Notes under the pieces: model-generated
Databases searched by the model: none
Told to the model about the DNA's origin: nothing
What the model saw: only the letters and a program-made list of their open reading frames with translations
Assembly: GCA_964016885.1 (NCBI GenBank)
Contig: OZ024743.1
Span: 358,856,001 to 358,920,000 of the forward strand
DNA length: 64,000 bases
DNA from: Eledone cirrhosa
Lineage: Eukaryota
Reading direction: 5' to 3'
In this document: positions 8,786 to 63,810 of the stretch, in pieces
How the letters are laid out: every line of letters starts with the position of its first letter
How positions within the stretch are numbered: the stretch's first letter is position 1
Program-made: the position numbers and the translations under genes

Positions 8786-9552
8786 ATGAGGATTTATCTT
8801 CGTCGTCTCATTTTTATCTCTTTACTAACACTTACAATTCCCTTGCTATGGATAAACATTCCAAAAGAATACAGTGAAAGCAATAACCGTAGCCAACATT
8901 TTCACAATTCGATTAGAAATAAGGAATTTCCTAAAAAAATAACAGTTAGAAAAATATATACACCTTCAAAAATTCGAACTTCTAATGTGATTAATAATGA
9001 TCACTGGATGAAAAGCGATCCATCTTCCCGCGTACACCAATCCAGTCTGTCCCGGAGGCGTTTAACAACGCGATATATCCGACGTAGCAACAGCAATATA
9101 TATTCGTCCATTCATGTGAATTATTCTTTAAGGGATATCCAAAATTCTATCGACATACTCTTACAAAAAAATACTCACAAACTAGGAGATGAGGAGGAGA
9201 ATATAAATAGTAATAAAAAGAAAGAAATGCAGCCTCGTGTTTTTCAAGCGATCTCCAATTCTTTACCAAAAAGCGAATGTGGTAATATGCAGGGAATTCC
9301 AGAGGGAAAATACCAAACGTGGCAGTTAATGACGAGAACTAGGGATGCTTGGGTTTTTTCGGCATTCTATGAAAATTTGACTGGACCCTTAATAAGAATA
9401 ATTGGTGCAAAAGCCCGGTGGATTTCATCGGACATACATTGTCAGTTATGGTTCAATGTAACCTCAAACAGCAACAATTCCTCCGACACAAAACTTCATC
9501 TAGTGGTTGTGTCTGCTTCTGTGAAGAATATACCAGAAGACCACAGCAGGAA
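8786..9552 (+). CDS. First coding exon of a type II membrane glycosyltransferase-like protein (GT92/DUF23-like)
   Basis: ATG, short basic N-terminus, TM helix (LIFISLLTLTIPLLWI), stem region, then WVFSAFY..IRIIG..HCQLWF typical of invertebrate GT92 N-domains. The exon ends at the splice donor AA|GTAAGT at 9552/9553. Confidence 0.75.
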
Positions 9553-9737
9553 GTAAGTGATCAATTTAATAATAATAATAATAATAATGATTTCATTTAT
9601 TAGCCACAAGGGCCGACATGTAGGGGACAATACAAAGACAGGGACAGTGGAGGTTTACAATAAGGTCGAGTAAAAGTGCACAATGGCAAGACTAATTTAA
9701 CAATGAAAATATAAAAATATAAAATAAACTATGCATA

Positions 9738-14167: not shown

Positions 14168-14203
14168 TCTTCTGATGAAGGACTAGCGTCCGAAACGTTA
14201 AGA
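14168..14203 (+). ncRNA. Minimal type I hammerhead ribozyme (PLE pLTR type)
   Basis: tctt-CTGATGA-a-ggac tagc gtcc-GAAAC GT T-aaga; loopless palindromic stem III. Confidence 0.75.
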
Positions 14204-18489: not shown

Positions 18490-18747
18490 AAAGAATAGAG
18501 GTGTAACACACAAGTTATTATATATTGGTAAACGGAATAGAAATGCGCAACCGGTAAAAACTTAAAAACTTAAAACCACAACTGAATACTAACCCATACA
18601 ATCACTAATACTCTTTTATTCCTAATTAAACCATTTTTCAACTGTGAACAATTTGTCAGCATTTTCTATTCCGTTTACCAATATATATATATATATATAT
18701 ATATATACGATATTAATAAATGGAAACTATATTTATAAAACCATATT

Positions 18748-18812
18748 TATTTCATTATACATATTTCAAGGATACCAAGTTAAATTATGGTATGCCTTCA
18801 TCAGATAAAATA
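18748..18812 (-). ncRNA. Type I hammerhead ribozyme (family D, inverted copy)
   Basis: Reverse complement of the 18951-19013 motif. Confidence 0.7.
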
Positions 18813-18950
18813 CAATATATACCAGTTTTACAAATAAGCATTGACGTACCCTTTCAAAATGCGACCATTACTTTTGGAAGACATCAGGATAGTAACGGTC
18901 GCATTTTGAAAGGGTACGTCAATGTTTATTTATAAAACTGGTATATATTG

Positions 18951-19013
18951 TATTTTATCTGATGAAGGCATACCATAATTTAATGGTATCCTTGAAATAT
19001 GTATAATGAAATA
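18951..19013 (+). ncRNA. Type I hammerhead ribozyme (family D)
   Basis: tattttat-CTGATGA-aggcatacca..tggtatcctt-GAAAT atgt ATA-atgaaata; 8-bp stem I. Confidence 0.75.
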
Positions 19014-19164
19014 AATATTGTTTTATAAATATAGTTTCCATTTATTAATATTGTATATCTACTCCAAATACTTGTCGAGTGCTTTATATCAGTTATAAAA
19101 ATATTTGCTTGTTGTATCCCAACAATTTAAATAGAACTTTTGCATATATATATATATATTTATA

Positions 19165-21620: not shown

Positions 21621-21667
21621 TGCCTTGAAAAGTCCCACCATATGGTCGGACGAAACGGCTGTCGGCA
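21621..21667 (+). ncRNA. Type I hammerhead ribozyme, U3-A8 variant
   Basis: tgcc-TTGAAAA-gtcc caccatatggtc ggac-GAAAC ggct GTC-ggca, followed by AATAAA. Confidence 0.75.
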
Positions 21668-25862: not shown

Positions 25863-26560
25863 GTATAGGACAGTGATGTAATTGTTATGCGTTTTAGTGT
25901 AGGACGGTAATGTTATTGTTGTTATGTGTCTTAGTATAGGACAGTAATGTTATTGTTGTTATGTGTCTTAGTAGAGGACAATGATGTTATTGTTATGTGT
26001 CTTAGTAGAGGACGGTGATGTTATTGTTGTTATGTGTTTTAGTGTAGGACGGTGATGTTATTGTTGTTATGTGTCTTAGTATAGGACAGTGATGTTATTG
26101 TTGTTATGTGTCTTAGTGTAGGACAGTGATGTTATTGTTGTTATGTGTCTTAGTGTAGGACAGTGATGTAATTGTTGTTATGTGTCTTAGTGTAGGACGG
26201 TAATGTTATTGTTGTTATGTGTCTTAGTATAGGACAGTGATGTTATTGTTGTTATGTGTCTTAGTGTAGGACGGTAATGTTATTGTTGTTATGTGTCTTA
26301 GTGTCAGACGGTGATGTTATTGTTGTTATGTGTCTTAGTGTAGGACAGTGATGTTATTGTTGTTATGTGTCTTAGTGTAGGACAGTGATGTAATTGCTGT
26401 TATGTGTTTTAGTGTCAGACGGTGATGTTATTGTTGTTATGTGTCTTAGTGTCAGACGGTGATGTTATTGTTGTTATGTGTCTTAGTATAGGACAGTAAT
26501 GTTATTGTAGTTATGTGTTTTAGTGTAGGACGGTGATATAATTGTTGTTATGTGTTTTAT
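25863..26560. repeat. 37-bp minisatellite (ttagtgtaggacagtgatgttattgttgttatgtgtc), ~19 copies
   Basis: Period seen at 26111 and 26148. Confidence 0.95.
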
Positions 26561-37302: not shown

Positions 37303-37837
37303 AAAAAAAGGAAAAGAATGACTTCACTTGTAGTTTTAAAAAATTTTCATTATAATATTATGAGTTGGTAGATCTAGTAAGTTCTTTGTTAACTTCGGTG
37401 GGAAGAATTATAAAGATTCCTGGTTAACTTGGGTTGGAGAACTTTCTCGCATTCGTCTGTCTGTGGCGATTGTCAAACAGTTTGTGTGTGTACAAATATG
37501 CATATATATATGTAAATATAAGTATATATGTATATACTTATATATACATACACATATTTTTCACAATGCAGATGACCTGTTAATAATAATCGAATATGTC
37601 TGATACAATAACCACAGGTATAAATCTAATATTACAGTTTATGTGTAGTAGCAACATATTTTTCTTTAGTGTACGCTAAATATTTTCTTTCTTTTCTATC
37701 TTGCATTGTATCACAACATCATATGAACTGTGTCATACTATATTACATATTCCTTTTTGTGTTACGCCTAAGGTATTGCAAACATTTTGACAAAGACCAA
37801 CCGTATTTCATCATGTCTGTACTGACATATATGTACA

Positions 37838-38438: not shown

Positions 38439-38474
38439 TTTTCTGATGAAGGACTGATGTCCGAAACGTTAAGA
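38439..38474 (+). ncRNA. Minimal type I hammerhead ribozyme, same family as 14168
   Basis: tttt-CTGATGA-a-ggac tgat gtcc-GAAAC GT T-aaga. Confidence 0.75.
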
Positions 38475-39514: not shown

Positions 39515-42300
39515 TACGTGGAGGGAGTATGTGGACGCTGGGTTTTTACTCCCAAAATGCATGGTGGTACACTTGTCCACATCTAGCTTGAGTTGCCAGT
39601 CTGTGATCCATTGTTGCATTGTGTCCAGGTCAGACTGCAAGCAAGATCTACAGTGTTCAGGATCTGTCCTTTTTATCTCAAGGTACAGCTTGATGTCATC
39701 TGCGTATTTCAGTACTGTGGCATTCTTTAAGTTGGCATCTATGTAATTAATATATGCCACAAACAAAAGGGGGCCAAGAACAGATCCCTGTGGTACACCA
39801 GATGACATCTAATATGGTGAGGAATGCTGTCCCAGAACCGTGACTACCTCTCTTCGACTGAGAATGAAGGACTTCAACCAGTTAAAAAGATCATCCTTCA
39901 CACCCATTGCAGAGAGTTTTGCCATAAGCATTTTGTGTGGCACATAATTGAAAGCTTTCGCAAAGTTAAGATAAACAACATCCACCCATGAGCCGCCATC
40001 AGTGATCCAGGTGATGTCTTCAAGAAACTCGATAAGTTGATCACAGCAGCTGGAGTTAGGGATAAATCCAAATTGCAAGGGCCGGATAAGACTGTGATAG
40101 TTCCAGAAGTTCCAAAGTGTTTCTCTGTCACAGGATTCTATCAGTTTGGCAATGCAACTAGTAAGACTGACTGGACGATAGTTGACAGGTGATGTGCGGT
40201 CACCCTTTTTGAACAGAGGAATGACACTGGCAGTTTTCCACTGATCTGGAGTAGCACCGTTGTTCAGACAGAATTGGATGAAGCGTGATAGCTGGTGCAG
40301 AAGGAGGTACCCACCTCGTTTAAGAAGCAGGTACGTAACACTATCAAGACCAGGAGAGGCATGGTTGCGTTTATTTTTAAGGTGACGTCGCAGCATTGCA
40401 GGTGTAAATTCGATGGTTGTAATAGAATCCGGTGTCATAGGTGGTGGAGACGGTACACTCTGGTCTTCAATAATGAAAATGCCTGCATAGCATTCAGCAA
40501 TGAGCTCTGCGCATTCCTTGGGGTCTTCAGTAACCTGGCTTGTGTGGGGATTGTGAAGAGGACCAACTGGAGAATGGGGCCTCTGCTTTGAGTGAACATA
40601 CTTCCAGAACACCTTACTGTCAGGGCTGGTTGCTATGCGCTGCTCAAATTGAAGCACTGCCTTTTTTGTCACCTGTTTGAGGTGGTTGGATGATTTATTT
40701 CGCCTCTTCCTATTGATGTCTGATTTATGCAGTTTGTACTCACGTTCAGGATTACGATGTTCTTTTCTGGCAAGACGGACTGCTGCAGTCTCCCAAATTG
40801 CACTTTTGGGATGTTTTTTCTGCTTACGTGGCATCGATGCTGCTCAGGATGTCCTGGAGTACAGTGTTGACATCTCCAGAGTCGTAGAACTCAAGCCAGT
40901 TTGGACCTTGCAACTTGGTGCAGTACAGTTCCAGTCTGCTTTATTCAGTCAAAGTGAGCAGTTTGGAGATGGTTGTGGTTTTTGTTACTGCCCATGAGGG
41001 ATAGATTGGCAATGATCATAGCATGATCAGAGTCACCTAAAGGTTCCTCAGTAACACTAATGACCGTTTCAGGAGTAGTGGTGAAGAGTAGGTCCAAAGT
41101 GTTGTCACCTTTTGTTGGGGAGATGACTACTTGGGACCAATTCGAGTCCAGCACAAGGAAGTCATTTGCACTTGGTGGCCAACAAAAGGTTTCCCAGTCA
41201 ACCTCAGGGTGATTGAAGTCCCCTGCAATAAAAGTGGCTGTTTTCCTGGCAGGAGCTCTGAGGATATCACACAGTTGAGTGTCCTGATGGTAATTTGGGG
41301 GACGGTAAACGACTCCAAGTAGCAGTGTTGACATGGTCATAGATCATCCAAAGACTTGCGCGAAGGGTGCTCTACGCCTTGGCCAACCAGGTCCGAAACC
41401 CAGGCTAATTAGGCTGTTTTTTCGAACTCAACTGAGGCACGTTCATACCTTGTAGCCTCTGATAAAGCTAGGCGTGAAAGTCGGATTGCTTTCCGAACAC
41501 GCCCTGATCTTCCACCTGATGTCCGCCCAAAGTTGCGTGCTGCAGCTTCCTTAAACCGCAGCTCAGCAGAACAAGAAAGCTTCAGCCTACGTGATGATGG
41601 GCAGATATGGAAGTTTATTAAGGCTGGTGAACCATGGAAAAGAGATACCAGCTGGTCTGAAAACACTGTACCCACAACAACTAACAATAAAAAAAACTGA
41701 AAAAACTCTGGGAAACTAAATCAGAACAACCTGCCATCCCCTGCACATAATCATATACTGGAATCAAGGTACAAATTGTTGTCCTTGAATGCACGCAGTC
41801 TATGCAATAAGATTCATATTGCAAATGCCTGAAGATCAACCATGTCTTCTGGTGCACCAATGGCAATCACCTCGTGGTTTGCAGATTCAGTGGCATTCTC
41901 AATGCGTCTAGATTCAACATGAGGTACGCGGAGATTTTTTAACAAGGTATTCCGGTAAGATCCCTCATTGTGAGGTTCTACACGAACGCTTGGTTTTATT
42001 CCCGCTATTTCTCGGCTTAAAGCGGAAATCATTTGCCGTATTTCCTCAAACTCCGTATTGACGGTCGATTTTTGTTGTTGTTCTCCTTCAACAGGCATGG
42101 TAGGGGAAGACACAGTCGTCGGTTGTTGTTGTTGAAAAGTAACGGGGGAGGAAGACATGGGTTGCTGTTGTTGATGATGTCCTTCAACGGGGGTAGTAGC
42201 AGAAGCTACGGTCGCTGGTTTTTGGTTTTTGGTTTTTGATGTTGTTCAGGAACAATGGTAGAGGAAGACACGATCTTCGATCCAAGTGTCTGCAAGTACA
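39515..42300 (-). mobile_element. Decayed CR1/L2-group LINE (ORF1, APE, RT) with an internal inversion
   Basis: APE motifs VYRPPN, GDFNHP, GDSDH; RT motifs NYRPVSLTS, YLNFAKAF, GVPQGSVLGP, KYADD; ORF1 RRM motifs. Confidence 0.9.
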
Positions 42301-42629: not shown

Positions 42630-43195
42630 TTAAATCGACCCCAGTGCATTACTGGTGGTTTTATTATATCGACCTCGTAAGAGTGAAAGGCAAAGCTAAC
42701 CTCGGCAGGATTTGTACTCTGAATGTAAATGGCCGTAACTCTATGCCGCAAAGCAGGGTGTCCGGTGCTCTCTCGATACTGCTGATCCAATAATAATAAT
42801 TGTTTCTACTTTTGGCACAAGGCCAGCAATTACCCAGTGTATTACTGGTACTTTATTTTATCGACCCCGTAAGGATGAAAGGCAAAGTTAACCGCGGCGG
42901 GATTTGAACTCAGATCATAAATCATAAAGGGCCGTAACTCTTTGCTGCACAGCATAGCGTCCGACCCTCTACCGATACTGCCAATCCACCAATAATAATA
43001 ATAATTGTTTCTACTTTTGGCACAAGGCCAGCAATTACTCAGTGTATTACTGGTACTTTATTTTTTCGACCCCGTAAGGATGAAAGGCAAAGTTAACCTC
43101 GGTGGGATTTGAACTCAGAATGGCTAGGGCCGTAACTCTCTGCGTCAAAGCATGGCGTCCGACCCTCTACCGATACTGCCAATCCACCGCCCTTA
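42630..43195 (-). mobile_element. Three head-to-tail Nin-domain SINEs separated by (AAT)n
   Basis: Copies at ~42630-42790, 42797-42990 and 43003-43192. Confidence 0.85.
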
Positions 43196-46344: not shown

Positions 46345-46346
<2 letters not shown>

Positions 46347-47250
46347 TTTATTTTTGAATTTGTTTTGCAAGATTTCTTATATGAAAACGTATGTTGAAAC
46401 AGATATTGTTATACTTTGCTGCCAATAAAAACACACATCTGTTGGTTTTTCATTTCAGTTTATTATAAATTTCTGGTTGGTTGGTTGGTTCTATAACTGG
46501 ATGGTTGTTTATACATTGTCAAAGCTCTATCGTCACACATTCTGTGACTTCCTCAATGACTAGGTTTTTATTTTGTGTCTCTCCTTTGTTCTATCCTACA
46601 CCATCTTGTTTTTGTGTGTTGCGTGTTATGTGCTTAGTTTGCGCATCCGTTACATCCGTGTGTATTTATTTATTTATTTAAGTGTTTATTTACTTGTCAT
46701 TAGTTGGTTGTTTGTTCTATGTGTGTGTGTCTGATTTAGTTTGGTTTTTGTGTGTGTCTGTATGTCTTCATTTTGTCCTTAATTACTAGTTGTGATGATG
46801 CTATTTCACACTTTCCTGTTTAATTTTAGTTGGAGTTCGTTTATATTTGTCGCCTCTGTGATTTGTCTGAGCATTACATCTGTTCTGTGTGTGGATATAA
46901 TTTTTATCTCTATGTTCTCTAATGTGCCTCTATGTTCTATTTTTGCATGTTGGTGGAGTACTGATGAGTTTTTCCCATCCTGGAGTTCTTGCCAGTGTTC
47001 ACTTATTCTTTCCCTTATGTTACGGGCTGTTTCGCTTATGTATGTTATGTTCTTATTCCTACCCAGTCCCTCAGTACATTTTATGCTATATACTACGTTC
47101 CTAGTTGTGCAGTTAGTTTGCGGGCTTAGCTTGCAGACTATACATTTCCTATCAGCACAGCTATCATAAATTTGTAAATGGTCGTAGTTTCTGTATTTTA
47201 CACACCACACGCATAGAACTGTTGCCATCATTCTGTGAAAAATTCGTTGA
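46345..47250 (-). mobile_element. PLE 3' fragment: GIY-YIG ORF (46806-47231) plus family C pLTR
   Basis: CxxC..CTTRNVVYSIKC..YISETARNIRERISEH..H..EA..LN; mutated HHR at ~46518-46560. Confidence 0.85.
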
Positions 47251-47315
47251 ATTCTAACAAGTAGTTTTTAAATACAATAAAATAATATTACGTTGTTAAT
47301 AATTTGAAACGTAAA

Positions 47316-48984: not shown

Positions 48985-49078
48985 ACCCCTTGAGAAGATC
49001 GGCTATTTAAATACCAGGATAAATTTACATTTAGTCCAGAATTAGCCGTCGATACGGCTTGAGCTCAGCCGTCGGGGT
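48985..49078 (+). ncRNA. Type I hammerhead, U3-A8 variant with long stem II (family A, full copy; A14>U in this copy)
   Basis: acccc-TTGAGAA-gatcggcta...tagccgtc-GATAcggct tgagctc agccGTC-ggggt; the other family A copies have GAAAC. Confidence 0.7.
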
Positions 49079-49169
49079 CTTACTGGTTCCTATTACCCAC
49101 TCTACTACCCCAAGTATTGAGTACTTTGGTGCGTTATGGTCCACCTGGTTCCTTACCACATTTCCTTCG

Positions 49170-49171
<2 letters not shown>

Positions 49172-49234
<63 letters not shown>

Positions 49235-49240
49235 ATATTA

Positions 49241-49328
<88 letters not shown>

Positions 49329-49382
49329 ATATATATATATATTATATATATTATATATATATATATATTTATATATATTATA

Positions 49383-49458
<76 letters not shown>

Positions 49459-49560
49459 ATATATATATATATTATATATATGTATATATATATATATTAT
49501 ATATATGTATATATATATATTATATATATGTATATATATATATATATTATATATATTATA

Positions 49561-49633
<73 letters not shown>

Positions 49634-49724
49634 ATTATATATATATATATTATATATATATATTATATATATATATATTATATAGATGTATATATATATA
49701 TATATTATATATATTATATATATG

Positions 49725-49758
<34 letters not shown>

Positions 49759-50057
49759 ATTATATATATATTATATATATATATATTATATATATATATT
49801 ATATATATATATATTATATATATCTATATTATATATATATATATATTATATATATTATATATATGTATATATATATATATATATTATATATATTATATAT
49901 ATGTATATATATATATATATATTATATATATATATATATATTATATATATATATTATATATATATTATATATATATATATATTATATATATATATTATAT
50001 ATATATATATATTATATATATATATTATATATATATATTATATATATATATTATATA

Positions 50058-50120
<63 letters not shown>
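49172..50120. repeat. ~950-bp degenerate (TA)n tract
   Basis: Read directly from the sequence. Confidence 0.95.
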
Positions 50121-50125
<5 letters not shown>

Positions 50126-51875
50126 ACGTGGGAAAGTAAAAAATCGGAGAATAGACCGTTAAAACATGTTTATTTAAAATATCACCTACGTACGTTTCGC
50201 CCAGTTGGGCTTCTCAAGGGCATAAATAATCACAAGTGTTCCTTATATAGTTCGGAAAGAGTTTTGGGGGTTAAATCTACATCAAGATTCATTGCTCGCA
50301 AAAATATCTTGTTTTGATTTTGCAGCAGGTCAAGGGAGGTAACTCTGGCCGGTGTTAGGGCAGTCTTTCCTGGATAATTTTTTTTTTTTTTTTTTTTTTG
50401 CCGCATCCGTTTGTCTGAGGCTGGGTCTGGTATGCAAGGATTGTTTTCTGGGTGTTATTTTGCTGCGCCTGCCCGCCGGGGTGTTAAGACTTGTTGCAGG
50501 GAGATCCACTGTACTATTTCACTCTTCATTCTTAACCCATCTAAAGAAGGATATTTTTAAGCGATGTGTACAACTTATCGCTGTTTCAGCTCTGCTGTTG
50601 ATGAGCTCGTGGGGTGCAGTTATGATGTGGTAGAGCTCCATGAGGCAAAGATCGCATTTCCTCTTGAAGTTGTACGGTGCAGCCCTGCCGACAATCTCCC
50701 AGTGCGTGGAGAAGCTGATGTTTAAGTCCTTTAGTGATGTGATGTAGTCCGCGAGCGAAGTGGAGTGCCTTAGTTTTCTATTTGTGAAAGAGTGGAGATG
50801 TGTTCGAAACCTAATTTTGAACGGGCCGGAGGTGGCCCCTATATAATGTTTAACGCTATTGTGGCAAGTAATAGTGCATCTATATATAACCCTATCAGTC
50901 AAGCAGTATCCTCTAAGGAGGCAGCGTCCTCTGTCGCGGCAGTTGCAATTTCTGTCGCGGTTCCGTCTATTTCCCACGGTAAGGCTATCATTATTGCTGC
51001 CTACGTTGTTACCTACGCTACCGCAGCTGTCGTTAGCACAATTACAACCCACAGCACGCGGGATGGTGCGATTGTTATTCCGCACGTCATGTTCTGCATG
51101 TTCCCCAGTCACTTCGCGGTCATTCATCAGCTTCTCCACGCACTGGGAGATTGTCGGCAGGGCTGCACCGTACAACTTCAAGAGGAAATGCGATCTTTGC
51201 CTCATGGAGCTCTACCACATCATAACTGCACCCCACGAGCTCATCAACAGCAGAGCTGAAACAGCGATAAGTTGTACACATCGCTTAAAAATATCCTTCT
51301 TTAGATGGGTTAAGAATGAAGAGTGAAATAGTACAGTGGATCACCCTGCAACAAGTCTTAACACCCCGGCGGGCAGGCGCAGCAAAATAACACCCAGAAA
51401 ACAATCCTTGCATACCAGACCCAGCCTCAGACAAACGGATGCGGCAAAAAAAAAAAAAAAAAAAAAATTATCCAGGAAAGACTGCCCTAACACCGGCCAG
51501 AGTTACTTCCCTTGACCTGCTGCAAAATCAAAACAAGATATTTTTGCGAGCAATGAATCTTGATGTAGATTTAACCCCCAAAACTCTTTCCGAACTATAT
51601 AAGGAACACTTGTGATTATTTATGCCCTTGAGAAGCCCAACTGGGGGAAACGTACGTAGGTGATATTTTAAATAAACATGTTTTAACGGTCTATTCTCCG
51701 ATTTTTTACTTTCCAACGTGCTTACGCTCTGCTAACTCTCTAGCCCACTAAATATTAACACTTCGAATATTTAATACTGCCGGCACTAGTATCGAGCACA
51801 TTTGGCATACGCTACTGGGCAAATAACTATATGTATCACCTATCCCTCCTTTTTCTCTCTTTCTCGATACGTAAA

Positions 51876-51880
<5 letters not shown>
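50126..51880 (-). mobile_element. 5'-truncated PLE (GIY-YIG end) with an inverted ~595-bp duplication of its 3' end
   Basis: Arms 50126-50720 and 51125-51719; ORF CNC..CLLRGYC..VIYRC..YIGATSGPFKIRF..CDLCLME. Confidence 0.9.
50185..50220 (-). ncRNA. Minimal hammerhead, U3-A8 variant; mirror copy at 51625-51660 (+)
   Basis: ccc-TTGAGAA-gccc aact gggc-GAAAC gtac GTA-gg. Confidence 0.7.
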
Positions 51881-51945
<65 letters not shown>

Positions 51946-52142
51946 GAAAAGTATAGAAATTATTGTGCGCAAGAAGCCAACAGTATTCCATGACCCTCCG
52001 AAAGTATAACAATATATACATATAATATATATATATTATATATATATTAACTCACGCGATATGAAAATTAGGCTGCTCAGCCGTTAATATGCATAAGGAA
52101 AGTATATACTTTCAGACGTTCAACCATCTGGCAGGCAGGTAT

Positions 52143-52185
52143 ACGTTGCTGACGATAGCTAATAAGCTTGAAACTAGTACAGCGT
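52143..52185 (+). ncRNA. Type I hammerhead ribozyme, array unit 1
   Basis: Intact core, 6-bp stem I, palindromic ACUAGU stem III. Confidence 0.85.
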
Positions 52186-52575
52186 TCCTTTGTCAGTGTT
52201 GAACAAATGAGCAACGATGGTTGCTAGACACTGTACGGCTTAATTCGGGATGTTTGTTTACAAACACACCGAGCATTATAATAAATGTTCGGTGAATCCA
52301 TACGTACATATATATATGTGTGCATGTATGTATATATATATATATACATACTACTGTACGTATGTATACATATATGTATGTACGTACACATACTTATATT
52401 TAAGTAACAGCCGTACTAAGAGTGAGAAATGAAATTTCGTTTCATTTTTTCCGTTTATCGTTTTCAGTACCCCGGCCGATTAACTCACTCGATATGCAAA
52501 TTAGGCTGCTCAGCCGTTAATATGCGTAAGGAAAGTATATACTTTCAGACGTTCAACCATCTGGCAGGAAGGTAT

Positions 52576-52618
52576 ACGTTGCTGACGATAACTAATAAGC
52601 TTGAAACTAGTACAGCGT
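52576..52618 (+). ncRNA. Type I hammerhead ribozyme, array unit 2
   Basis: As unit 1, with a stem II mismatch (taact). Confidence 0.8.
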
Positions 52619-53006
52619 TCCTTTGTCAGTGTTGAACAAATGAGCAACGATGGTTGCTAGACACTGTACGTCTTAATTCGGGATGTTTGTTTACAAACAC
52701 ACCGAGCATTATAATAAATGTTCGGTGAATCCATACGTACATATATATATGTGTGCATGTATGTATATATATATATACATACTACTGTACGTCTGTATAC
52801 ATATATGTATGTACGTATACATACTTATATTTAAGTAACAGCCGTACTAAGAGTGAGAAATGAAATTTCGTTTCACTTTTTCCGTTTATTGTTTTCGGTA
52901 TCCCGGCCGATTAACTCACTCGATATGCAAATTAGGCTGCTCAGCCGTTAATATGCATAAGGAAAGTATATACTTTCAGACGTTCAACCATCTGGCAGGC
53001 AGGTAT

Positions 53007-53049
53007 ACGTTGCTGACGATAGCTAATAAGCTTGAAACTAGTACAGCGT
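53007..53049 (+). ncRNA. Type I hammerhead ribozyme, array unit 3
   Basis: As unit 1. Confidence 0.85.
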
Positions 53050-53441
53050 TCCTTTGTCAGTGTTGAACAAATGAGCAACGATGGTTGCTGGACACTGTAC
53101 GGCTTAATTCGCGACGTTTGTTTACAAACACACCGAGCATTATAAAAAATGTTCGGTGAATCCATACGTACATATATATATATGTCTGCATGTATGTATA
53201 TATATATATATACATACTACTGTACGTCTGTATACATATATGTATGTACGTATACATACTTATATTTAAGTAACAGCCGTACTAAGAATGAGAAATGAAA
53301 TTTCGTTTCATTTTTTCCGTTTATCGTTTTCGGTACCCCGGCCGATTAACTCACTCGATATGCAAATTAGGCTGCTCAGCCGTTAATATGCGTAAGGAAA
53401 GTATATACTTTCAGACGTTCAACCATCTGGCAGGAAGGTAT

Positions 53442-53484
53442 ACGTTGCTGACGATAACTAATAAGCTTGAAACTAGTACAGCGT
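53442..53484 (+). ncRNA. Type I hammerhead ribozyme, array unit 4
   Basis: As unit 2. Confidence 0.8.
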
Positions 53485-53872
53485 TCCTTTGTCAGTGTTG
53501 AACAAATGAGCAACGATGGTTGCTAGACACTGTACGTCTTAATTCGGGATGTTTGTTTACAAACACACCGAGCATTATAATAAATGTTCGGTGAATCCAT
53601 ACGTACATATATATATGTGTGCATGTATGTATATATATATATACATACTACTGTACGTCTGTATACATATATGTATGTACGTATACATACTTATATTTAA
53701 GTAACAGCCGTACTAAGAGTGAGAAATGAAATTTCGTTTCATTTTTTCCGTTTATTGTTTTCGGTATCCCGGCCGATTAACTCACTCGATATGCAAATTA
53801 GGCTGCTCAGCCGTTAATATGCATAAGGAAAGTATATACTTTCAGACGTTCAACCATCTGGCAGGCAGGTAT

Positions 53873-53915
53873 ACGTTGCTGACGATAGCTAATAAGCTTG
53901 AAACTAGTACAACGT
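53873..53915 (+). ncRNA. Type I hammerhead ribozyme, array unit 5
   Basis: Stem I is fully Watson-Crick (acgttg/caacgt). Confidence 0.85.
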
Positions 53916-54241
53916 TCCTTTGTCAGTGTTGAACAAATGAGCAACGATGGTTGCTGGACACTGTACGGCTTAATTCGCGACGTTTGTTTACAAACACACC
54001 GAGCATTATAAAAAATGTTCGGTGAATCCATACGTACATATATATATATGTGTGCATGTATGTATATATATATATATACATACTACTGTACGTCTGTATA
54101 CATATATGTATGTACGTATACATACTTATATTTAAGTAACAGCCGTACTAAGAGTGAGAAATGAAATTTCGTTTCATTTTTTTTCCGTTTTTTATATATA
54201 TATATATTATATATATATATTATATATATATATTATATATA

Positions 54242-54304
<63 letters not shown>

Positions 54305-54417
54305 TATATATATATATATTATATATATATATATATTATATATATATATATTATATATATAGTAATAATAATAAATTGAAGACTAAAATTTTAATAAATA
54401 TATATATTATATATATA

Positions 54418-54481
<64 letters not shown>

Positions 54482-54614
54482 TATATATATATATATTATA
54501 TATATATTATATATATAATATATTATATATATATATTATATATATATTATATATATATATTATATATTATATATATATTATATATGTATTATATATATAT
54601 ATATTATATATATC

Positions 54615-56199
54615 TGATCTCAACATCCTGGACCGGACCGAACCTCTGGACCCTATTTCTCCCCACTTTACCCTGAAGGATCACAAATCCAATTTTCCGA
54701 ACAACCCCTCCATTCGGCTTATTAACCCTACGAAGTCCGATTTAGGTAGACTTAGTAAAACGATTCTTGATAGAATTATACCTGAAATTAGAAGTTTGGC
54801 CCCTCTTGCACTGTCGAACAATTCTTTCGCGCTGATTGATTGGTTCAACGGCATATGTAACAAGGAACATTGCCGTTTTATCCAATTCGACATCAACAAT
54901 TACTACTCCTCCATCACTTTACTACTTCTCCTTAGAGCTATTAATTTCGATAAAACACTCACAGTGGTTAAGGATTTCGAAGTTGATGTCATCCTCAATG
55001 CCCGAAAGTCGGTGATTAATTTCGACGACTCTATTTGGATTAAAAAATCCAACAGTACCCTATTCGACGTGAGTATGGGCGCCAGTGATTCTGCGGAGGT
55101 TACTGATCTTATCGGCCTTTTCCTTCTTTTCTCTATCAAGGACGAATTCCCCAACGCGGGCGGTGGTTTGTACCGTGACGATGGTCTTTTGACCATGACT
55201 AAGTGCGGACCTCGTGCTTGCGACAGGTTCAGAAAAGAACTCACAGCCTTCTTTAAAGGCTTCAACCTTTCTATACAGGTTGAGGCCAATCTCTCGGTCG
55301 TTAATTACCTCGACGTTACCCTCAATTTATTGAATGGGTTGTATTACCCGTATGGAAAGCCGAATGATACGCTTAATTACATAAGTAAGCATTCCATCCA
55401 TCCTGCCAGCATAACCAAGAACCTGGTAAGAAACGTTTCGTTGAGGCTTTCCCGTCTTTCCACCAACGAGCGTATTTTCAACGACAATTCCACTTATTAC
55501 AATGAAGCTCTTGCTCGAAGTGGATTTGTCGATAAGGTAGCATATACAGAGTACGAAAATAGACCTAGAAGAAATAGATCCCGTCGCATTTGTTGGTATA
55601 ACCCACCATATAATATGGAGGTGGCCACACCATTAGCTAAGATCTTTCTTTCCCTTATTACGAAGCATTTTCCCCCTACACATAAGTATAGTAAAATTTT
55701 TAATAGAAATACTATTAAAATTTCTTACTCTACGACTCCTAACCTTGCACATAACATCACAGCTTCAAATTTAGCTAAACTACCTGGCCGTAGGAACACG
55801 TGCAACCCTGTAGTTAGTACTAAGTGTAATTGTAGCAATCGGGTTGATTGCCTCCTATCCGGGAAATGCCTCTCTAGTAACATTGTCTACAAATGTAAGG
55901 TTGTAACACCCACGTCCCGTAGGGCCTACATAGGGTTAACCGCCAATAGATTCAAGCAGCGTCTTTACATGCATACCCATTCTTTTCGTTACCCTCTAAG
56001 AAGGAATATGACGTCACTTTCAGCTTATATCTGGAGTCTAAAAGACAACCACACCCAATATAAGTTACACTGGGAGATCCTAGCTAGGGTTAGATCGTAT
56101 AACGGAAATAAAAGATCATGTGACCTCTGCGCCGTTGAGGCCCTGAAAATACTCTACGCCACAGACCACATCTTAAACAAAAAATCTGAGGCAATTTAG
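54615..56199 (+). CDS. PLE reverse transcriptase + Cys-rich linker + GIY-YIG endonuclease (N-terminally truncated)
   Basis: TLKDHK..RLINPTKSDLG, QFDINNYYSSI, GGLYRDDGL, NYLDVTL, WYNPPY, KCNC..CLLSGKC..IVYKC..YIGLT..RF..H, CDLCAVE. The true frame starts after the TA tract. Confidence 0.9.
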
Positions 56200-57192
56200 G
56201 CTTGTAAACATAAATTGCACAAAACTTTCCTGTATTACAGCCCCACGTTATACCCTAACGGATAGTACGATTTATACGTGGATATTTTACGTCTTGATGT
56301 GGGAGCTAAGTATATGTTTTGTTTATACCATTACTTATTTGCATAGGCAAGTATATATTACCCGTATGTTTTGTGAAGGTACGTATACCTTCTCGTACGT
56401 ATATTTGATTGTTTATATTATGGCGTATAATTTTATATATTTTGGTACATATGGTTTGGCTATGTGTATACGGGAGTTTTGCGTCTGTGTGAGTATGCAG
56501 GTTCGTACGTATGTAGGGTGTGTGTATATGTGTACTTCATGTTTTAGTTGACTTACGTCTCCGAACATTCGTGTATTTACATGTAGGTATGTGTGTGCGT
56601 TTGTTATATACGTATTTATTTATTTATATACGTTTATATAATTATTTATTTATTTGTAAACACGCATACACACACACATATTTATATTGCGTGGTTTTGT
56701 ATACCGATGGTAAGTGTCCTGCGTATGCTTGTGTATGTACGTATTTGTTTGCGTGTATGCATTTATTTATTTCTATTACTTCTGTATTGTATTTATTTAC
56801 TTTGTTCTTAACTCTGTAGCAGAGATTCATTTGGTCTCCTGGTTAGAATTTTAGTCTACGACTTCTGCTATACCATTTACGTCGTTTTGTCTTTGCGTGC
56901 TATTGTTCTCTACATATGACGTATTATCTTCGTTTTTTTCGTTCATTGCCAGAGAACGTCTCTATGAACCACCTAAGAGAACATTAGTCTACGACCTCTT
57001 TTATACCATAAACGTGGTTCTGTCTTTGCGCGTAATTGTTTTTCACTGCTCCTATTAATTACGTATTATATTCGTTTTTTTCCGTTCTTTGCCAGCGAAC
57101 ATTTCCACGAACCAAAGTATCGTCTTCCTGTCTTCCTCCGGTTGCAACGTTTTTTGAAATATCCACTTCTGCGTTTACAGATTGACTTTGTT

Positions 57193-57243
57193 AGTTTCAG
57201 AAGATCCCGTTAAGGGTGAAAGCAGCGATTCTTTGCTTAAACT
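57193..57243 (+). ncRNA. Hammerhead-like motif with a variant core CAGAAGA (family B)
   Basis: agttt-CAGAAGA-t ccc gttaa ggg t-GAAAGCAG cgattct TTGCTT-aaact; the same core is at ~6091. Confidence 0.55.
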
Positions 57244-57428
57244 TTAATCTGTTATTTTAATAAATATTTGCTCTACGGTTCTTATATATTTGATATATAT
57301 TTATCCTTATCGAGCCCTCTTTGGATTTTAGTCTTCAAATTTATTATTATTACTATATATAAATATATATATATAAATATATATATAAATATATATATAA
57401 TTATATATATATATAAATATATATTATT

Positions 57429-57461
<33 letters not shown>

Positions 57462-57559
57462 AATATATATATATAATTATATATATATATAAATATATAT
57501 TATTATATATATAAATATATATATATATATAAATATATATATAATTATATATATATATT

Positions 57560-57592
<33 letters not shown>

Positions 57593-57768
57593 AATAATAT
57601 ATGAATACACACACGTATACATATGTATATGTAACAAGTCTTTCACTGGTTGCTTTACTGTGAGCACCCAGCTATTCTGTATGTAAACACACAGACAAAC
57701 CGGTTTTTAGAGTCATACTGGTTTTTGAGGGAACACCTTCCCTCTATTCTCCAGAAAGCCAGACAAGG

Positions 57769-57813
57769 AATATTGAACTAGTTTCGTTGTTGTTACAACT
57801 CATCAGCAATATT
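57769..57813 (-). ncRNA. Type I hammerhead ribozyme (inverted copy)
   Basis: Exact reverse complement of 57962-58006. Confidence 0.85.
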
Positions 57814-57961
57814 TACCTATCTACCGGCCCTTCTGGAGAATTGTAAAAGCACATATCGTTATATGCTTTTTCTATGAAAATTAGTAGTGGGCAGACTAAT
57901 TTGCATAGAGTGTGAGTACGCACCGGTTCAGCGGAGACGATAAAAACAAATGACGAAACGA

Positions 57962-58006
57962 AATATTGCTGATGAGTTGTAACAACAACGAAACTAGTTC
58001 AATATT
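57962..58006 (+). ncRNA. Type I hammerhead ribozyme
   Basis: aatattg-CTGATGA-gttgt aaca acaac-GAAAC ta GTT-caatatt; perfect 7-bp stem I. Confidence 0.9.
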
Positions 58007-58430
58007 CCTTGTCTGGCTTTCTGGAGAATAGAGGGAAGGTGTTCCCTCAAAAACCAGTATGACTCTAAAAACCGATTTGTCTGTGTGTTTACATACAGAA
58101 TAGCTGGGTGCTCACAGTAAAGCAACCAGTGAAAGACTTGTTACATATACATATGTATACGTGTGTGTATTCATATACACACTAGTATTTCAGTATGCAT
58201 ATGTAGATGTAATTTTTTTAAACTTAATTGTTTAAGCGTCAGTCATACAAAAGTGAGTTACAAACGAAACGAAATTTAATTTCGTTTCGTCATTTGTTTT
58301 TATCGTCTCCGCTGAACCGGTGCGTACTCACACTCTATGCAAATTAGTCTGCCCACTACTAATTTTCATAGAAAAAAGCATATAACGATATGTCCTTTTA
58401 CAATTCTCCAGAAGGGCCGGTAGATAGGTA

Positions 58431-58475
58431 AATATTGCTGATGAGTTGTAACAACAACGAAACTAGTTCAATATT
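58431..58475 (+). ncRNA. Type I hammerhead ribozyme
   Basis: Identical to 57962-58006. Confidence 0.9.
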
Positions 58476-58800
58476 CCTTGTCTGGCTTTCTGGAGAATAG
58501 AGGGAAGGTGTTCCCTCAAAAACCAGTATGACTCTAAAAACCGGTTTGTCTGTGTGTTTACATACAGAATAGCTGGGTGCTCACAGTAAAGCAACCAGTG
58601 AAAGACTTGTTACATATACATATGTATACGTGTGTGTATTCATATACACACTAGTATTTCAGTATGCATATGTAGATGTAATTTTTTTTAACTTAATTGT
58701 ATAAATATATATATATATATATAAATATATATATAAATATATATATATATAAAAATATATATATAATTATATATATATATATATAAATAAATATATATAT

Positions 58801-58837
<37 letters not shown>

Positions 58838-59026
58838 AATATATATATAAATATATATATATAAATATATATATAAATATATAAATATATATATATATAA
58901 ATAAAAATATATATATAAATATTTCCTCAGGGAAATAACAACCCAACCAGGAACTGGGCATATCAGAGTATTGACAAAGCTAAACACCTCAACAACACGT
59001 GTACTCGTCTTACCACACTAATTCGG

Positions 59027-59081
59027 ACTGCCTGAAGAGATCACAGCCAAAGATGGATTTCACCGAAATATATATAGCAGT
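59027..59081 (+). ncRNA. Type I hammerhead ribozyme (family H)
   Basis: actgc-CTGAAGA-irregular stem II-GAAAtatata TA-gcagt. Confidence 0.6.
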
Positions 59082-59210
59082 AATTAACGAAGCCAAATTT
59101 TAAACATTTGACTTATTTATTTCATACTCCGGAGTAACCAAACCAACCTTCCCACAACGTCGAGTGCTCCAATCTGCATACTAGGTGTTGGTTTACAACC
59201 AACATATACT

Positions 59211-59301
<91 letters not shown>

Positions 59302-59522
59302 AATAAATATATATATAAATATATAGTTAAAAGAATAGAGGTGTAACACACAAGTTATTATATATTGGTAAACGGAATAAAAAATGCTGACAAATTGTTC
59401 ACAGTTGAAAAATGGTTTAATTAGGAATAAAAGAGTATTAGTGATTGTATGGGTCAGTATTCAGTAATGGTTTCATTCTTTAAGGGTATGTCAATAGTAA
59501 TTTATAAAACTGCTCTATATTA

Positions 59523-59587
59523 TATTTTATCTGATGAAAGCACACCATAATTTAACTTGGTGTCCTTGAAATATGTATAATGAAATA
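59523..59587 (+). ncRNA. Type I hammerhead ribozyme (family D)
   Basis: Homologous to 18951-19013; stem II varies as cacca/tggtg versus tacca/tggta. Confidence 0.75.
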
Positions 59588-59729
59588 AATATGGGTTTAT
59601 AAATATAGTTTCCATTTGTTAATATCGTATATTTACTCCAATTATTTGTTGAGTGCTTTATATCAGTTATAAAAATATTTGCTTGTTGTATCCCAACAAT
59701 TTAAATATAATTTTTACATATAAATATAT

Positions 59730-62700
59730 ACAATGGACAAACACAACAAAAACAACAACAACAACAGCCACAACAACAGCCACGACAACAACAACAGCAA
59801 GAAAGCCAGGAGCAACCACTACTGAATTCAAGCATAATCGCTGAATTACTAAATGACAGTATCACTCAGCCACTCACTCAGCCATCATTATCGCCATCAC
59901 CATCACCACCGTCACCATCTCCTGCAACACCTACACCTTCTGCCACACCAACTGCTAGTAATGGACCACTGCTCTCTCTCCCACCACAGTTGTCATCATC
60001 ATCATCACCACCAATGCTTTCTTCCCCCACATCACCACCATAGCCATGCCATAGTCAAAAGAACTATAAAAAAAAAGTTCTATGGAGCTGTATGCACCTC
60101 CCACTACACATACTAGAAACCCCAAATATGCCGCTACTCACTACGCCAGAGGCTATGCACACGTAGCGACTGTATACACCCATTTACCCATTTACCAGGT
60201 ACTAGGCGCCCTAACACTGCCAGCCATCACCAAAGCCCGCTGCCTGCACGTATAGGTCGCAGTCCCAAAATCTGCCATCATTCCCAACGTGAGAGGCTAT
60301 GTCTGCTGACTGACTGTCCCTTCACTCATCTTCCTGGGACACAACGCACGAACAGAAAAGGGGCTTCATGCCAACCCACAAACCACAATAAAGCCACCCC
60401 CTGCTGCGGTAATGTTGCTCCAGTCTCCTCACAAAGACATGATTACAACGACAAAAGTAATGCTGCTCCAGTCTTGTCACAAAGACACGATCACAACAAC
60501 AACAAATACAACAACAAAAATAACGCTGCTCCAGTCTTTTCACAAAGACACAATTACAACAAATACAACAACAACAACAAAAGAGGGAACTGCAACCCTA
60601 TCCAATGTTGTAACCACAAATCCAATCAAAAACTGCTCCCTGAACAAAAAGAAAATCTTCCTTTTTTAGCCATGAACCTGGCAAAAGAGATAGAGAAAAA
60701 CATTTTAGCCATCACCCAACACCAACCTTGCTGTCAATAACACACAATCACAAAACAAGCCCCCTGCAACAGTCAAAACCAGCCACCAGCCTAGCCTCCA
60801 CATTCTTACTCAATACACAATGTATCAGCCCATCCATCAATGCACAGAAATGGAAGATCCAATTCATTGAGGATTGGGTTGGTAACCATCCATTTCACAT
60901 CCCCTTCTTCATTCTTACTGAGACCCACCTTGACAACTCCCACTTGGAGGCCGAAGTAAGAGTGAGAAATTTCACAACCATCCGTGCGGATCGTGTTGGC
61001 AGAAGGAAGGGTGGAACTGCCATTTTCCTGCATGATTCCTTTACGGCAGATGGCAACACAACATTCTCTAATGGATACTGTGAATCAGTCACTGTGCACA
61101 ATAAAGCCAATGACCTGACATTAGTTGGGCTCTATAGGCCGCCACAAACACCCATTATCTGTTTCAAAGAATGCCTCAACAGTATTAAATGCTTTATTAA
61201 ACAGTGCCATTCTAGCAACATACTTTTGATGGGAGACTTTAATCTACCCTGTGTCGATTGGTCTACATGTAGTTTGAAACCAGGCTCCACAGCCTCAACC
61301 ACTGACAAAGAGGCTGTCGAGTCACTTCTTGACTCCATGAATGAGTTTTTCTTGTCTCAACTTGTCCTTGCACCAACGAGGCATCAGAAGAACATTCTGG
61401 ATTTAGTGTTTAGTAACCACACTAACACTATACATAATATTACAGTGGAAAAAACCCTTCTCTCAGGCCATGACATGGTTATTTGTAACCTGAGATTCCA
61501 CCAGCCGAAAGCTAATCCCAGGGTCCTCTCTCCAGCCCACCCATTTGATAACATGGATCTCTACAATGCCAACTGGGATGCAATTATGAACGAACTATCA
61601 CATGTCGACTGGTCTTTTACACACGTACACACTTCCACCAACATCAAAACATCTTGGCAGATCTTTGTAGACACTGTCACAAATATATGTACAAAACACA
61701 CCCCTACCAAAACCTGTGAAAAAAACCAAGTGCAGTATCCCCCAAAACAGAAAAACAATTATCAGAAAAATAAAAAGAACAAACAAAAAAATTAACACAC
61801 TAAAATACTGCCAACAGCAACACACACATTCAATGACTATCACCCTGCTTGAGTCAAACAAATATAACCTCCAGCAATGCATGATGACCATCATCAATAA
61901 CCAAAGAATAGCTGAAGAGAGGTGGGCCATTGAGAAAATCAAACTCAACCCCAAAGTGTCATTCGCTAAAAACACAAGGTCACCGTCTCCACTGTTGCCC
62001 CCCCTCCCTATTTGATGAACATGGCACACTCCAGGACAATGCCAAAACCATGGGCGAGATACTGCAGAAACAATACTGCTCTGTTTTCAGCAACCCTGAT
62101 ATGGCCGATCTGGGCCGTATCAGTGATATTAACCCCCAACACACTATATCAGACATAACGTTTGGCGCGCGCCCCTGATGTCTTAGCGGCAATAAACGAA
62201 ATTAAACACAATTCAGCAGTAGGCCCCGACAGGTTCCCTGCTTGTGTCCTGAAGGTGTGTCGACACCAACTTGCAACTCCTCTTGCTAATCTGTGGAGGA
62301 ACTCACTGGCTATATTCCTGAAAACTTTCTGTCCCAGTCCGTTGTCCCAGTCTTCAAAAAGAGAAATAAGTCCCTTGCAGTGAACTACCGTCCGATCTCA
62401 CTCACATCTCATATTATCAAGGTATTTGAGAGGGTGGTGAGATCACGAATAACCCACTTTCTTGAAAGCAACGGCCTGCTGAACTCCAACCAACATGGGT
62501 TCCGTAATGGCAGGGACTGCCTAACGCAGCTCCTGCATCACTTTGACGATGTTTTGAGATCCTTGGGAGAGGGCTCCAACACTGATGTCATCTACGTTGA
62601 TTTCAGCAAGGCCTTCGACAGGGTTGATCATAAGATTCTACTGAAAAGACTATCCAATGTTGGTGTCTCTGGAAGGTTACTACAGTGGATCAAATGTTTC

Positions 62701-63810
62701 CTGACAGGCAGAACCTAGCATGTTGTAGTCGAAGGAGTAAAATCAAGCCCCGTAGTGGCGTCTCACAAGGCACTGTGTTGGGCCCACTTCTTTTCATCAT
62801 CTACATTAATGACATTACTGACATCATCAAACACAGTAACATCAGAATCTTCGCAGATGATTCCAAGCTCCAAAGGGTCATCAATGAGGTGGGTGACCGG
62901 ACTTGCCTTCAGTCAGACCTACTGGCTGTTATCCAATGAGCAGAGATGAATAATATGCTGTTGAATGAGGATAAATTTGAACTAATCCACTTTGGAAAAA
63001 AGGATGCTCTGAAACTACCATACTCTCTTCCTTCGGGTGAAACTCTAGTAGCTTCCAATAACATCAGAGACCTGAGAGTAATTGTGGACAACAATATAAG
63101 CTGGGCCACTCATATAAACAGCAAAGTTGATATGGCCCGCAGAATGTGTTCCTGGATTCTCAGAACTTTCCAATCTAGAGATATCCACACTGTTGTCCTA
63201 CTCTTCTCCACATTTGCCCGACCCCACCTTGAATACTGTTGTCCACTGTGGTCACTCCACACGAAACAAAGTATCATGAAAGTTGAAGCACCCCAAAGGT
63301 CAATTACAAAAAAGATAGTTGGCATGACAGGCCTTGACTATTGGGGTCGATTAGAAAAGCTCAAACTTTATTCTCTTCAACGTCGCTGTGAGCGCTACAT
63401 TATCTGTATGATGTGGAAAATATTCCATCAGCTTAGCCCAAATGATGTTGGCATCACCTTTAGTGTAAACCCAAGGCTTGGGCCCCGTGCTATCCGCCCA
63501 CGACAAAAATCCCACTCGCATCACATAACAACAATACGGCACAATTATTTCACCTCAATTGGCCCTGCAATCTTTAACATTACACCAAAACACATCAAAG
63601 CAGAAACAGACCCCATTAAGTTCAAGAAGTCTTTGGATAAATTCAAGAAATCCCGGATAAGCCTCCTACACCCGGATATGCCTCCGTAAACAATAACTCT
63701 CTGCTCGAGTGGACCAAACACTGATTTGTAAGACTTCGACAGGTGGTGCTATTAAGTTAGACATGGCCTGGGCCAATACTGGCTGAAACCTATCAAAGTT
63801 ATCAAAGTTA
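59730..63810 (+). mobile_element. Near full-length decayed CR1/L2-group LINE: ORF1 remnant with CCCH fingers, APE-RT ORF2, short-repeat tail
   Basis: LTETHL, RADR..KGGT, YRPP, MGDFN, GHD; NYRPISLTS, DFSKAFD, QGTVLGP, FADD, RPHLEY; tail tatcaaagt x2 runs into (TA)n. Confidence 0.9.

What the first reader, a model, noticed from the sequence alone, without database searches (positions are those of the whole stretch)
50126..59720. Cluster of an autonomous-type PLE flanked by retrozyme-like arrays and other HHR elements in one (TA)n field
Seen: in under 10 kb there are a PLE 3' end with inverted pLTR, the 433-bp array, a PLE with an uninterrupted RT-GIY-YIG frame, the 469-bp repeat, and families H and D. 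All are separated only by TA tracts and carry about 13 HHR motifs. Inference: a (TA)n-targeting GIY-YIG/RT machine repeatedly deposits itself and its non-coding HHR parasites in the same microsatellite. The TA/TATG-rich segment inside each retrozyme unit could assist priming.
Basis: partly seen in the sequence, partly recalled or inferred. Interest (0 to 1): 0.7.

Follow-up and report, generated by a model that had tools for sequence, protein, structure and literature searches.

The report
Penelope retroelement pile-up in TA repeats
Ten broken or non-coding mobile elements from nine families sit chained through TA repeats, which the known TA preference of Penelope-type jumping genes likely explains, and two ribozyme-only repeats among them end the same way those genes do, so such an enzyme likely copied them.

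Summary
The cluster is real: 13 hammerhead motifs (11 pass my scan, 2 damaged) in 9.6 kb, against 1.2 per 10 kb and at most 6 in 100 background stretches. The anatomy needs correcting. The 'autonomous-type' PLE lacks its first 159 residues and has a private stop. Families H and D are 3' stumps of two other Hydra-clade PLEs, not non-coding parasites. More families are present, and two joints have no TA. All six families tested end at two fixed sites followed by (TA)n (212 of 243 ends; background 6%), one of each site in head-to-head pairs (56 of 58). The 433- and 469-bp retrozymes share this PLE 'tail' footprint, which points to PLE mobilisation in trans. Co-clustering is no higher than a TA-centred control (2.3 versus 2.2 motifs per 10 kb), so a shared target explains the cluster, not a local machine. 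The retrozymes lack the hairpin found at Hydra ends, so their partner is unassigned. The internal TA/TATG segment is a conserved RNA stem, not the main priming site. Hydra TA targeting is published. This scan has noted the two-armed footprint and the hairpin before, on other DNA of this genome.

The parts
49000..49172 (+). Family G 3' end (long end at 49172), just outside the finding; very abundant TA-inserted element with a Hydra-type hairpin; start is approximate, the element runs further left
49171..50121 (.). Imperfect (TA)n tract, 950 bp
50126..51124 (-). PLE1 (Hydra clade) 5'-truncated arm with the GIY-YIG C-terminus; short 3' end at 50126; hammerhead with U3-A8 core, predicted cut at 50187
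51125..51879 (+). PLE1 second arm, long 3' end (160-nt tail beyond the short site at 51719); hammerhead at about 51627-51658 with a stem II mismatch
51943..52012 (.). Mixed head-to-head joint: family F2 end (minus, 51943-51990) joined without TA to the short end of CCHH-type PLE family N1 (plus, 51989-52012)
52046..54190 (+). 433-bp retrozyme array, 4.95 units, five type I hammerheads (predicted cuts 52179, 52612, 53043, 53478, 53909; the 2nd and 4th have a stem II mismatch); 3' end at the family's long site (unit position 277); units 2-3 and 4-5 form an 866-bp higher-order duplication
54193..54611 (.). (TA)n tract holding a miniature second PLE2 insertion at 54362-54399 (28-nt long-end arm on minus, a few bases of the short end on plus)
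54612..57353 (+). PLE2 (Hydra clade), 5'-truncated: frame 54613-56199 lacks the first 159 residues and stops 21 codons early; long 3' UTR; hammerhead-like motif with A at core position 4, predicted cut 57238; short site 57267, long end 57353
57598..57964 (-). 469-bp retrozyme, inverted arm with one hammerhead (57776); its 3' end lies at unit position 178, inside the TA/TATG segment and not at a family site
57961..58704 (+). 469-bp retrozyme, direct arm, 1.6 units, hammerheads 57999 and 58468; 3' end at the short site (236)
58921..59213 (+). Family H: 3' stump (long end) of a third Hydra PLE; hammerhead 59027-59081 with damaged stem II
59326..59465 (-). Family E, 5'-truncated arm with long 3' end at 59326, joined head-to-head to D through a 4-nt shared word
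59462..59730 (+). Family D: pLTR stump (long end 59730, short site about 59630) of a fourth Hydra PLE; hammerhead, predicted cut 59579

Best explanation
This is a pile-up of ten insertions from nine families, each ending in a (TA)n tract, likely made one after another by Penelope-like (PLE) reverse transcriptase/GIY-YIG proteins encoded elsewhere in the genome. Shown: four of the families are Hydra-clade PLEs, all dead or reduced to 3' stumps here; one is a CCHH-type PLE end; two (433 and 469 bp) are related non-coding hammerhead repeats. All six families tested end at two fixed sites followed by TA, start at scattered 5' positions, and often form head-to-head pairs with one short and one long end. 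Inferred: the endonuclease cuts both strands of AT-rich DNA with a stagger of about 10-16 bp, and reverse transcription starts inside the RNA at two sites, one per side of the break (as shown in vitro for a lizard PLE, PMC11167929). The target is left on both sides, so the tract stays open to the next insertion. The retrozymes offer their own two start sites to some PLE protein in trans. Which PLE family copies them is not settled; the neighbouring Hydra families are not favoured, because the retrozymes lack their end hairpin.
For: TA follows 212 of 243 fixed 3' ends, 25 of 173 5' ends and 8812 of 142468 background positions. 56 of 58 classifiable head-to-head pairs are long+short, 22 of 23 for the retrozymes. 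Raw contigs show loose AT runs at the same sites: 53755, 57267, 59632. Target duplications of 10-15 bp at four 433 insertions in non-pure-TA sites (L005, L013, L025, L026). Hydra motifs RWR, DKT, CxCx5C, CxxC and CxH in PLE2, PLE1 and the parents of D and H. D flanks a full ORF on both sides in L272. Foreign hammerheads near family copies: 82 in 351 kb (2.33 per 10 kb), against 2.20 around any long TA tract and 1.24 at fixed positions. Ages differ: H 90%, 469 99%.
Against: Family loci are the best-scoring hits, not a random sample, and the PLE1, PLE2, H and D queries ran close to the long end. 28 of 271 classified 3' ends fall at neither site; some are alignment breaks in expanded TA, but the window's own 469 inverted arm and two 433 copies (L018, L027) end inside the TA/TATG segment. 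No empty orthologous site was seen, so a pre-existing TA target is inferred. No Pfam, PDB or Rfam match backs the protein or RNA calls; they rest on motifs. The cluster exceeds all 100 background stretches (11 versus at most 6 motifs; 6 versus at most 5 types), which may mean extra local feedback.
Confidence: 0.85

Rival explanations
1. One reading: the local Hydra PLE family (PLE2) is the machine that deposits itself and its hammerhead parasites, which cluster with it.
For: PLE2 has intact relatives (16 of the 150 best hits have the 713-residue frame) and the same end anatomy and target. One locus joins a Hydra H arm directly to a 433 arm (L148).
Against: The local copy is dead. Hydra ORF homology lies within 1.5 kb of 6 of 57 retrozyme loci, against 18 of 60 background 10-kb stretches, about the same per base. 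The RCTC...GAGY hairpin 5-10 nt past the ends of PLE1, PLE2, D, H and G is absent after all four retrozyme ends. H and D are PLE ends.
Confidence: 0.15
2. The retrozyme arrays are satellites spread by DNA-level events (unequal crossover, recombination between TA tracts), not by reverse transcription.
For: The window's 433 array shows a DNA-type 866-bp higher-order duplication (units 2 and 4 differ at one site), and units 1, 3 and 5 share a base seen in none of 45 other copies.
Against: Fixed double 3' ends, scattered 5' ends, head-to-head arms and target duplications across more than 1100 candidate loci per family are not expected from recombination. The duplication accounts only for later growth of one array.
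Confidence: 0.04
3. The TA tracts are mostly written by the elements themselves (terminal addition or slippage by the reverse transcriptase), so TA at the ends is a product and not a target.
For: TA content and hammerhead count correlate across background stretches (rho 0.48). 164 of 554 complex TA boundaries are recurrent element ends. Tracts here are long.
Against: No strand polarity in tract interruptions (18 AA-biased versus 18 TT-biased). Copies in AT-rich non-TA sites have plain target duplications and no added TA (L013, L026). 5'-truncated single arms in the window also abut TA.
Confidence: 0.12

Closest known systems
Hydra clade of C-terminal EN+ Penelope-like elements, including Hydra-1_Obim (Craig et al. 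2021, PMC8557442; passages, section 11 and supplement rows read)
   Same: RT then GIY-YIG in one frame; RWK-like, DKT, CxCx5C, CxxC and CxH motifs; hammerhead in the pLTR; (TA)n insertion; 5' truncation, inverted arms and a tail at one end.
   Different: Tails here are 85-160 nt, not 30-40. PLE2 has a hammerhead core with A at position 4 and a 5-bp stem III. A small hairpin follows both end sites (not in the passages read). No tree was built.
Metazoan non-LTR retrozymes (Cervera and de la Pena 2020, PMC7229834, passages read; Li, Clavereau and Pollet 2026, bioRxiv 10.64898/2026.07.22.740005, parts 1-3 of 5 read)
   Same: Non-coding tandem units of a few hundred bases, low GC, one type I hammerhead with palindromic stem III per unit, strongly self-paired monomer (z -8.6 and -9.6), PLE proposed as the mobiliser.
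   Different: The parts read describe neither TA targeting nor two fixed ends nor head-to-head arms. No PLE pLTR homologous to these units turned up in about 2 Mb of loci. Cleavage, circles and expression were not tested.
Poseidon PLE of Anolis, internal initiation of reverse transcription (Frangieh et al. 2024, PMC11167929; parts 1-2 of 4 read)
   Same: Two RT start sites define the genomic tail; both strands of AT-rich DNA are cut; ribozyme cleavage does not set the end.
   Different: Other clade; start sites there lie in an AC-rich stem-loop inside the ORF, here upstream of the ORF or in non-coding units.

Membership tests
Hydra-clade PLE | Single ORF with RT and C-terminal GIY-YIG | tested here: met
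   713-residue frame in family copies with YRDD and a C-terminal YIG domain; by motifs only, Pfam and PDB gave no match
Hydra-clade PLE | N-terminal RWK motif and DKT in place of DKG | tested here: met
   RWR and DKT in PLE2 family and D parent; DKT in PLE1; lost by truncation in the window copy; not seen for H, whose N-terminus was not recovered
Hydra-clade PLE | CxCx5C linker, CxxC and CxH around the catalytic E/N, no CCHH | tested here: met
   PLE1, PLE2, D and H parents; the window PLE2 copy loses CxH to its early stop
Hydra-clade PLE | Hammerhead in the pLTR and insertion into (TA)n | tested here: met
   PLE2 core is non-canonical at position 4 in 41 of 41 copies
Hydra-clade PLE | Phylogenetic placement with published Hydra proteins | not tested
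   reference proteins were not available as tool sequences
Autonomous (active) PLE copy | Full-length ORF with upstream pLTR | tested here: not met
   window copy lacks 159 N-terminal residues and the 5' pLTR and has an early stop
Non-LTR retrozyme (433 and 469) | Non-coding tandem unit of 150-1000 bp with a type I hammerhead in each unit | tested here: met
Non-LTR retrozyme (433 and 469) | Highly self-paired monomer | tested here: met
   0 of 100 shuffles fold as well; 16 of 83 predicted pairs changed on both sides between the two units (two sequences only)
Non-LTR retrozyme (433 and 469) | Self-cleavage and circular RNA | not testable with these tools
   needs RNA data or a bench assay
Non-LTR retrozyme (H and D) | Non-coding tandem unit independent of an ORF | tested here: not met
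   D flanks a Hydra ORF (L271, L272); H lies 3' of one in 4 of 8 extended loci

The most novel reading that the evidence does not exclude
PLE proteins act as a two-sided copier that loads one RNA at two start sites, and they accept foreign RNAs. The 433/469 retrozymes carry their own, non-Hydra pair of start signals, and the mixed head-to-head joints (E/D and F2/N1 here, Hydra H/433 in L148) are single events in which two different RNAs were copied into the two sides of one break. This would be genomic evidence of a shared TA-targeting machinery serving many unrelated RNAs.
Probability: 0.25. Interest if true: 0.7.

Novelty: new member of a known kind. Interest (0 to 1): 0.42.

Why it matters
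The cluster itself follows from published Hydra biology. The useful part is that two protein-free ribozyme repeats carry the PLE insertion footprint at base resolution. PLE mobilisation of animal retrozymes is proposed in the papers read but not shown there. The fixed sites give exact predictions for an in vitro reverse-transcription assay and a way to find the partner enzyme. The controls also show that such hammerhead hotspots need no special local machine, and that in this genome about 30% of scorable TA tract boundaries are recurrent element ends.

Tried and rejected
Rfam, Pfam (for the PLE1 and PLE2 frames) and PDB sequence searches gave nothing. RNA runs: no RNA holder listed; laid contigs are of unknown type and could not show empty alleles. 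AA/TT polarity of TA tracts, suggested by the window, is absent genome-wide (18:18). Search for the retrozyme partner: 30 loci of the CCHH-type family N1 show a 60-nt tail but no shared motif, and no retrozyme-like tail next to a PLE ORF was seen in the part of the output shown (outputs cut). Rolling-circle copying of a monomer circle as the origin of the window's 433 array could not be supported, because the units are not star-like. The conserved ATGCAAAT word lies in a predicted stem in both units; the snRNA-type promoter of newt satellite 2 is recalled, and a search did not retrieve that paper. Whether the A4 hammerhead core is published stays open: the supplement search hit only FASTA text and PMC5785218 is not held. 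Literature searches for the footprint in retrozymes listed no paper describing it; subscription papers and bioRxiv supplements were not seen.
Full report
Setting. The window lies on contig C4 of a 3.0-Gb animal genome rich in microsatellites. Earlier notes call it octopus-like; I did not test that.

Observation. A type I hammerhead scan that allows the U3-A8 core described in PMC4209133 (part 1 of 4 read) and position-4 variants finds 11 motifs in 50126-59720. Two more, in the plus arm of PLE1 and in H, have damaged stem II and were read from the sequence. Background is 1.19 motifs per 10 kb in 100 evenly spaced stretches, maximum 6; shuffled DNA gives 4 in 20 stretches. Eight of the 13 motifs belong to two insertions; counted as types, the finding has 6 against a background maximum of 5. 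So the place is unusual but at the end of a continuum. Rfam reports nothing.

The PLE is not autonomous. Its family has a 713-residue stop-to-stop frame in 16 of the 150 best hits. The window copy begins at residue 164, directly after TA, and stops 21 codons early; none of 41 other copies does. The family has the motifs that Craig et al. 2021 give for the Hydra clade: RWR, DKT, CxCx5C, CxxC, CxH. That paper reports (TA)n insertion for almost all Hydra families and lists Hydra-1_Obim with a (TA)n preference. PLE1 is a second Hydra family. D is the pLTR of a third: it flanks an ORF on both sides in L272 and precedes one in L271. H is the 3' end of a fourth: ORF homology lies upstream on the same strand in 4 of 8 extended loci. 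Only the 433- and 469-bp families are non-coding tandem units. They are homologous, with aligned end sites and a shared fold.

Ends. I mapped copies in 164 loci (best hits of six searches; window copies and overlapping loci dropped). Each family has two fixed 3' ends: 433 at unit positions 279 and 220, 469 at 304 and 230-236 (counted from the predicted cut), PLE1 51879/51719, PLE2 57353/57267, H 59213/about 59125, D 59730/about 59630. Of 271 classified 3' ends, 243 fall at these sites; 212 of the 243 have (TA)4 or more within 25 nt, against 10 of 28 other ends, 25 of 173 5' ends and 6.2% of background positions. Of 76 head-to-head pairs, 58 had both ends at a fixed site, and 56 of these were long+short. 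In the unbiased background, 8 of 21 pieces of 433 ended at 273-279 and 3 at 214-220, all with TA; most of those checked near 200 and 263 were alignment breaks that run on to a fixed site. Raw contigs show loose AT runs at the same sites. Where the target is not pure TA, duplications of 10-15 bp flank four 433 insertions; 21 pairs were examined and most have pure TA flanks that cannot be scored. This is the PLE tail signature, which PMC11167929 ties to two internal RT start sites. The ends do not coincide with the ribozyme cut.

Clustering. Hammerheads of other families occur at 2.33 per 10 kb in the flanks of family copies (82 in 351 kb, 163 loci), 2.20 around any TA tract of 8 or more units (82 in 124 windows of 3 kb) and 1.24 at fixed positions. 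Hydra ORF homology lies near 6 of 57 retrozyme loci and in 18 of 60 background stretches three times as long. Co-location is therefore what a shared target predicts. Recurrent element ends make up 164 of 554 scorable TA boundaries in 600 kb, against 19 of 197 for CA, TG, GA and TC tracts. Window copies are 90% (H) to 99% (469) like their best relatives, so they arrived at different times.

Partner of the retrozymes. A lead from earlier notes, a small RCTC...GAGY hairpin just past each end, held in my test for both ends of PLE1, PLE2 and D and for the short ends of H and G (8 of 9 contexts; it failed at the long end of G in L158). It is absent after all four retrozyme ends and both N1 ends. The neighbouring Hydra families are thus not the favoured partners, though one locus joins an H arm straight to a 433 arm (L148). 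Mixed joints are rare: 4 against 157 same-family joints, 0 against 32 in background, and 2 in this cluster. The library came from this cluster, so the excess is biased. E/D and H/433 are long+long, which fits two RNAs at one break but also a deletion between two adjacent two-armed insertions; such an E-TA-D neighbour pair exists near 18500-19160 in the window.

TA/TATG segment. It forms a long stem in both units, with five pairs changed on both sides. The short end lies at its 3' foot in 433 and about 20 nt beyond in 469; the long end is 59-70 nt further. Three ends do fall inside it (the window's 469 minus arm, L018, L027), so occasional priming or later deletion there is not excluded. All fixed ends finish on a few A/T bases that could pair with a TA primer (inference).

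The 433 array. Units 2-3 and 4-5 form an 866-bp duplication, and units 1, 3 and 5 share a base absent from 45 other copies. This points to later DNA-level turnover or a multimeric template and gives no evidence for a monomer circle.

Verdict. Real, largely explained by known TA targeting of Hydra PLEs. The retrozymes' PLE footprint is good genomic support for a proposed but unshown route; it was not in the papers read. The scan has reported it, and the hairpin, on other DNA of this genome. Nothing here shows cleavage, transcription or nicking.

Noticed in passing
window 57191-57243: PLE2 hammerhead-like motif has A at core position 4 in 41 of 41 copies, U-U closing stem II and a 5-bp stem III that should allow monomer folding; activity unknown.
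   Followed up: partly
window 52493-52504 and 58338-58349: TATGCAAATTAG (octamer word) is identical in the 433 and 469 units about 110-130 nt before the cut, but lies in a predicted stem; promoter role untested.
   Followed up: partly
L072:1050-1250: A subfamily of the 433 retrozyme has at least 37 copies about 100% identical over 201 bp, so it was mobilised very recently.
   Followed up: no
window 18500-19160: Two-armed E insertion next to a two-armed D-subfamily insertion, separated by TA.
   Followed up: partly
window 46345-47267 (minus): Decayed CCHH-type (Neptune-like; label recalled) PLE 3' part, family N1, with a predicted hammerhead and a 60-nt tail; very abundant at TA tracts.
   Followed up: partly
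window 244-1991 (minus): Another decayed Hydra-type RT, 38% identical to PLE2 protein.
   Followed up: no
window 14172-14199, 38443-38470, 21625-21663, 37425-37476: Four further hammerhead motifs of other families.
   Followed up: no
window 60644-63689 and 39809-40843: LINE-type fragments (APE endonuclease and RT Pfam hits); the first starts just right of the cluster after an AAC-rich stretch.
   Followed up: no
window 8768-9556: 262-residue frame with no Pfam hit, possibly a host exon.
   Followed up: no
window 25882-26559 and 42640-43188: 37-bp minisatellite (18 copies) and a 205-bp SINE-like tandem.
   Followed up: no
L038-L050 (C5:73.32 Mb) and C1:193.40 Mb: Long tandem arrays of the 469 family, more than 10 units.
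   Followed up: partly
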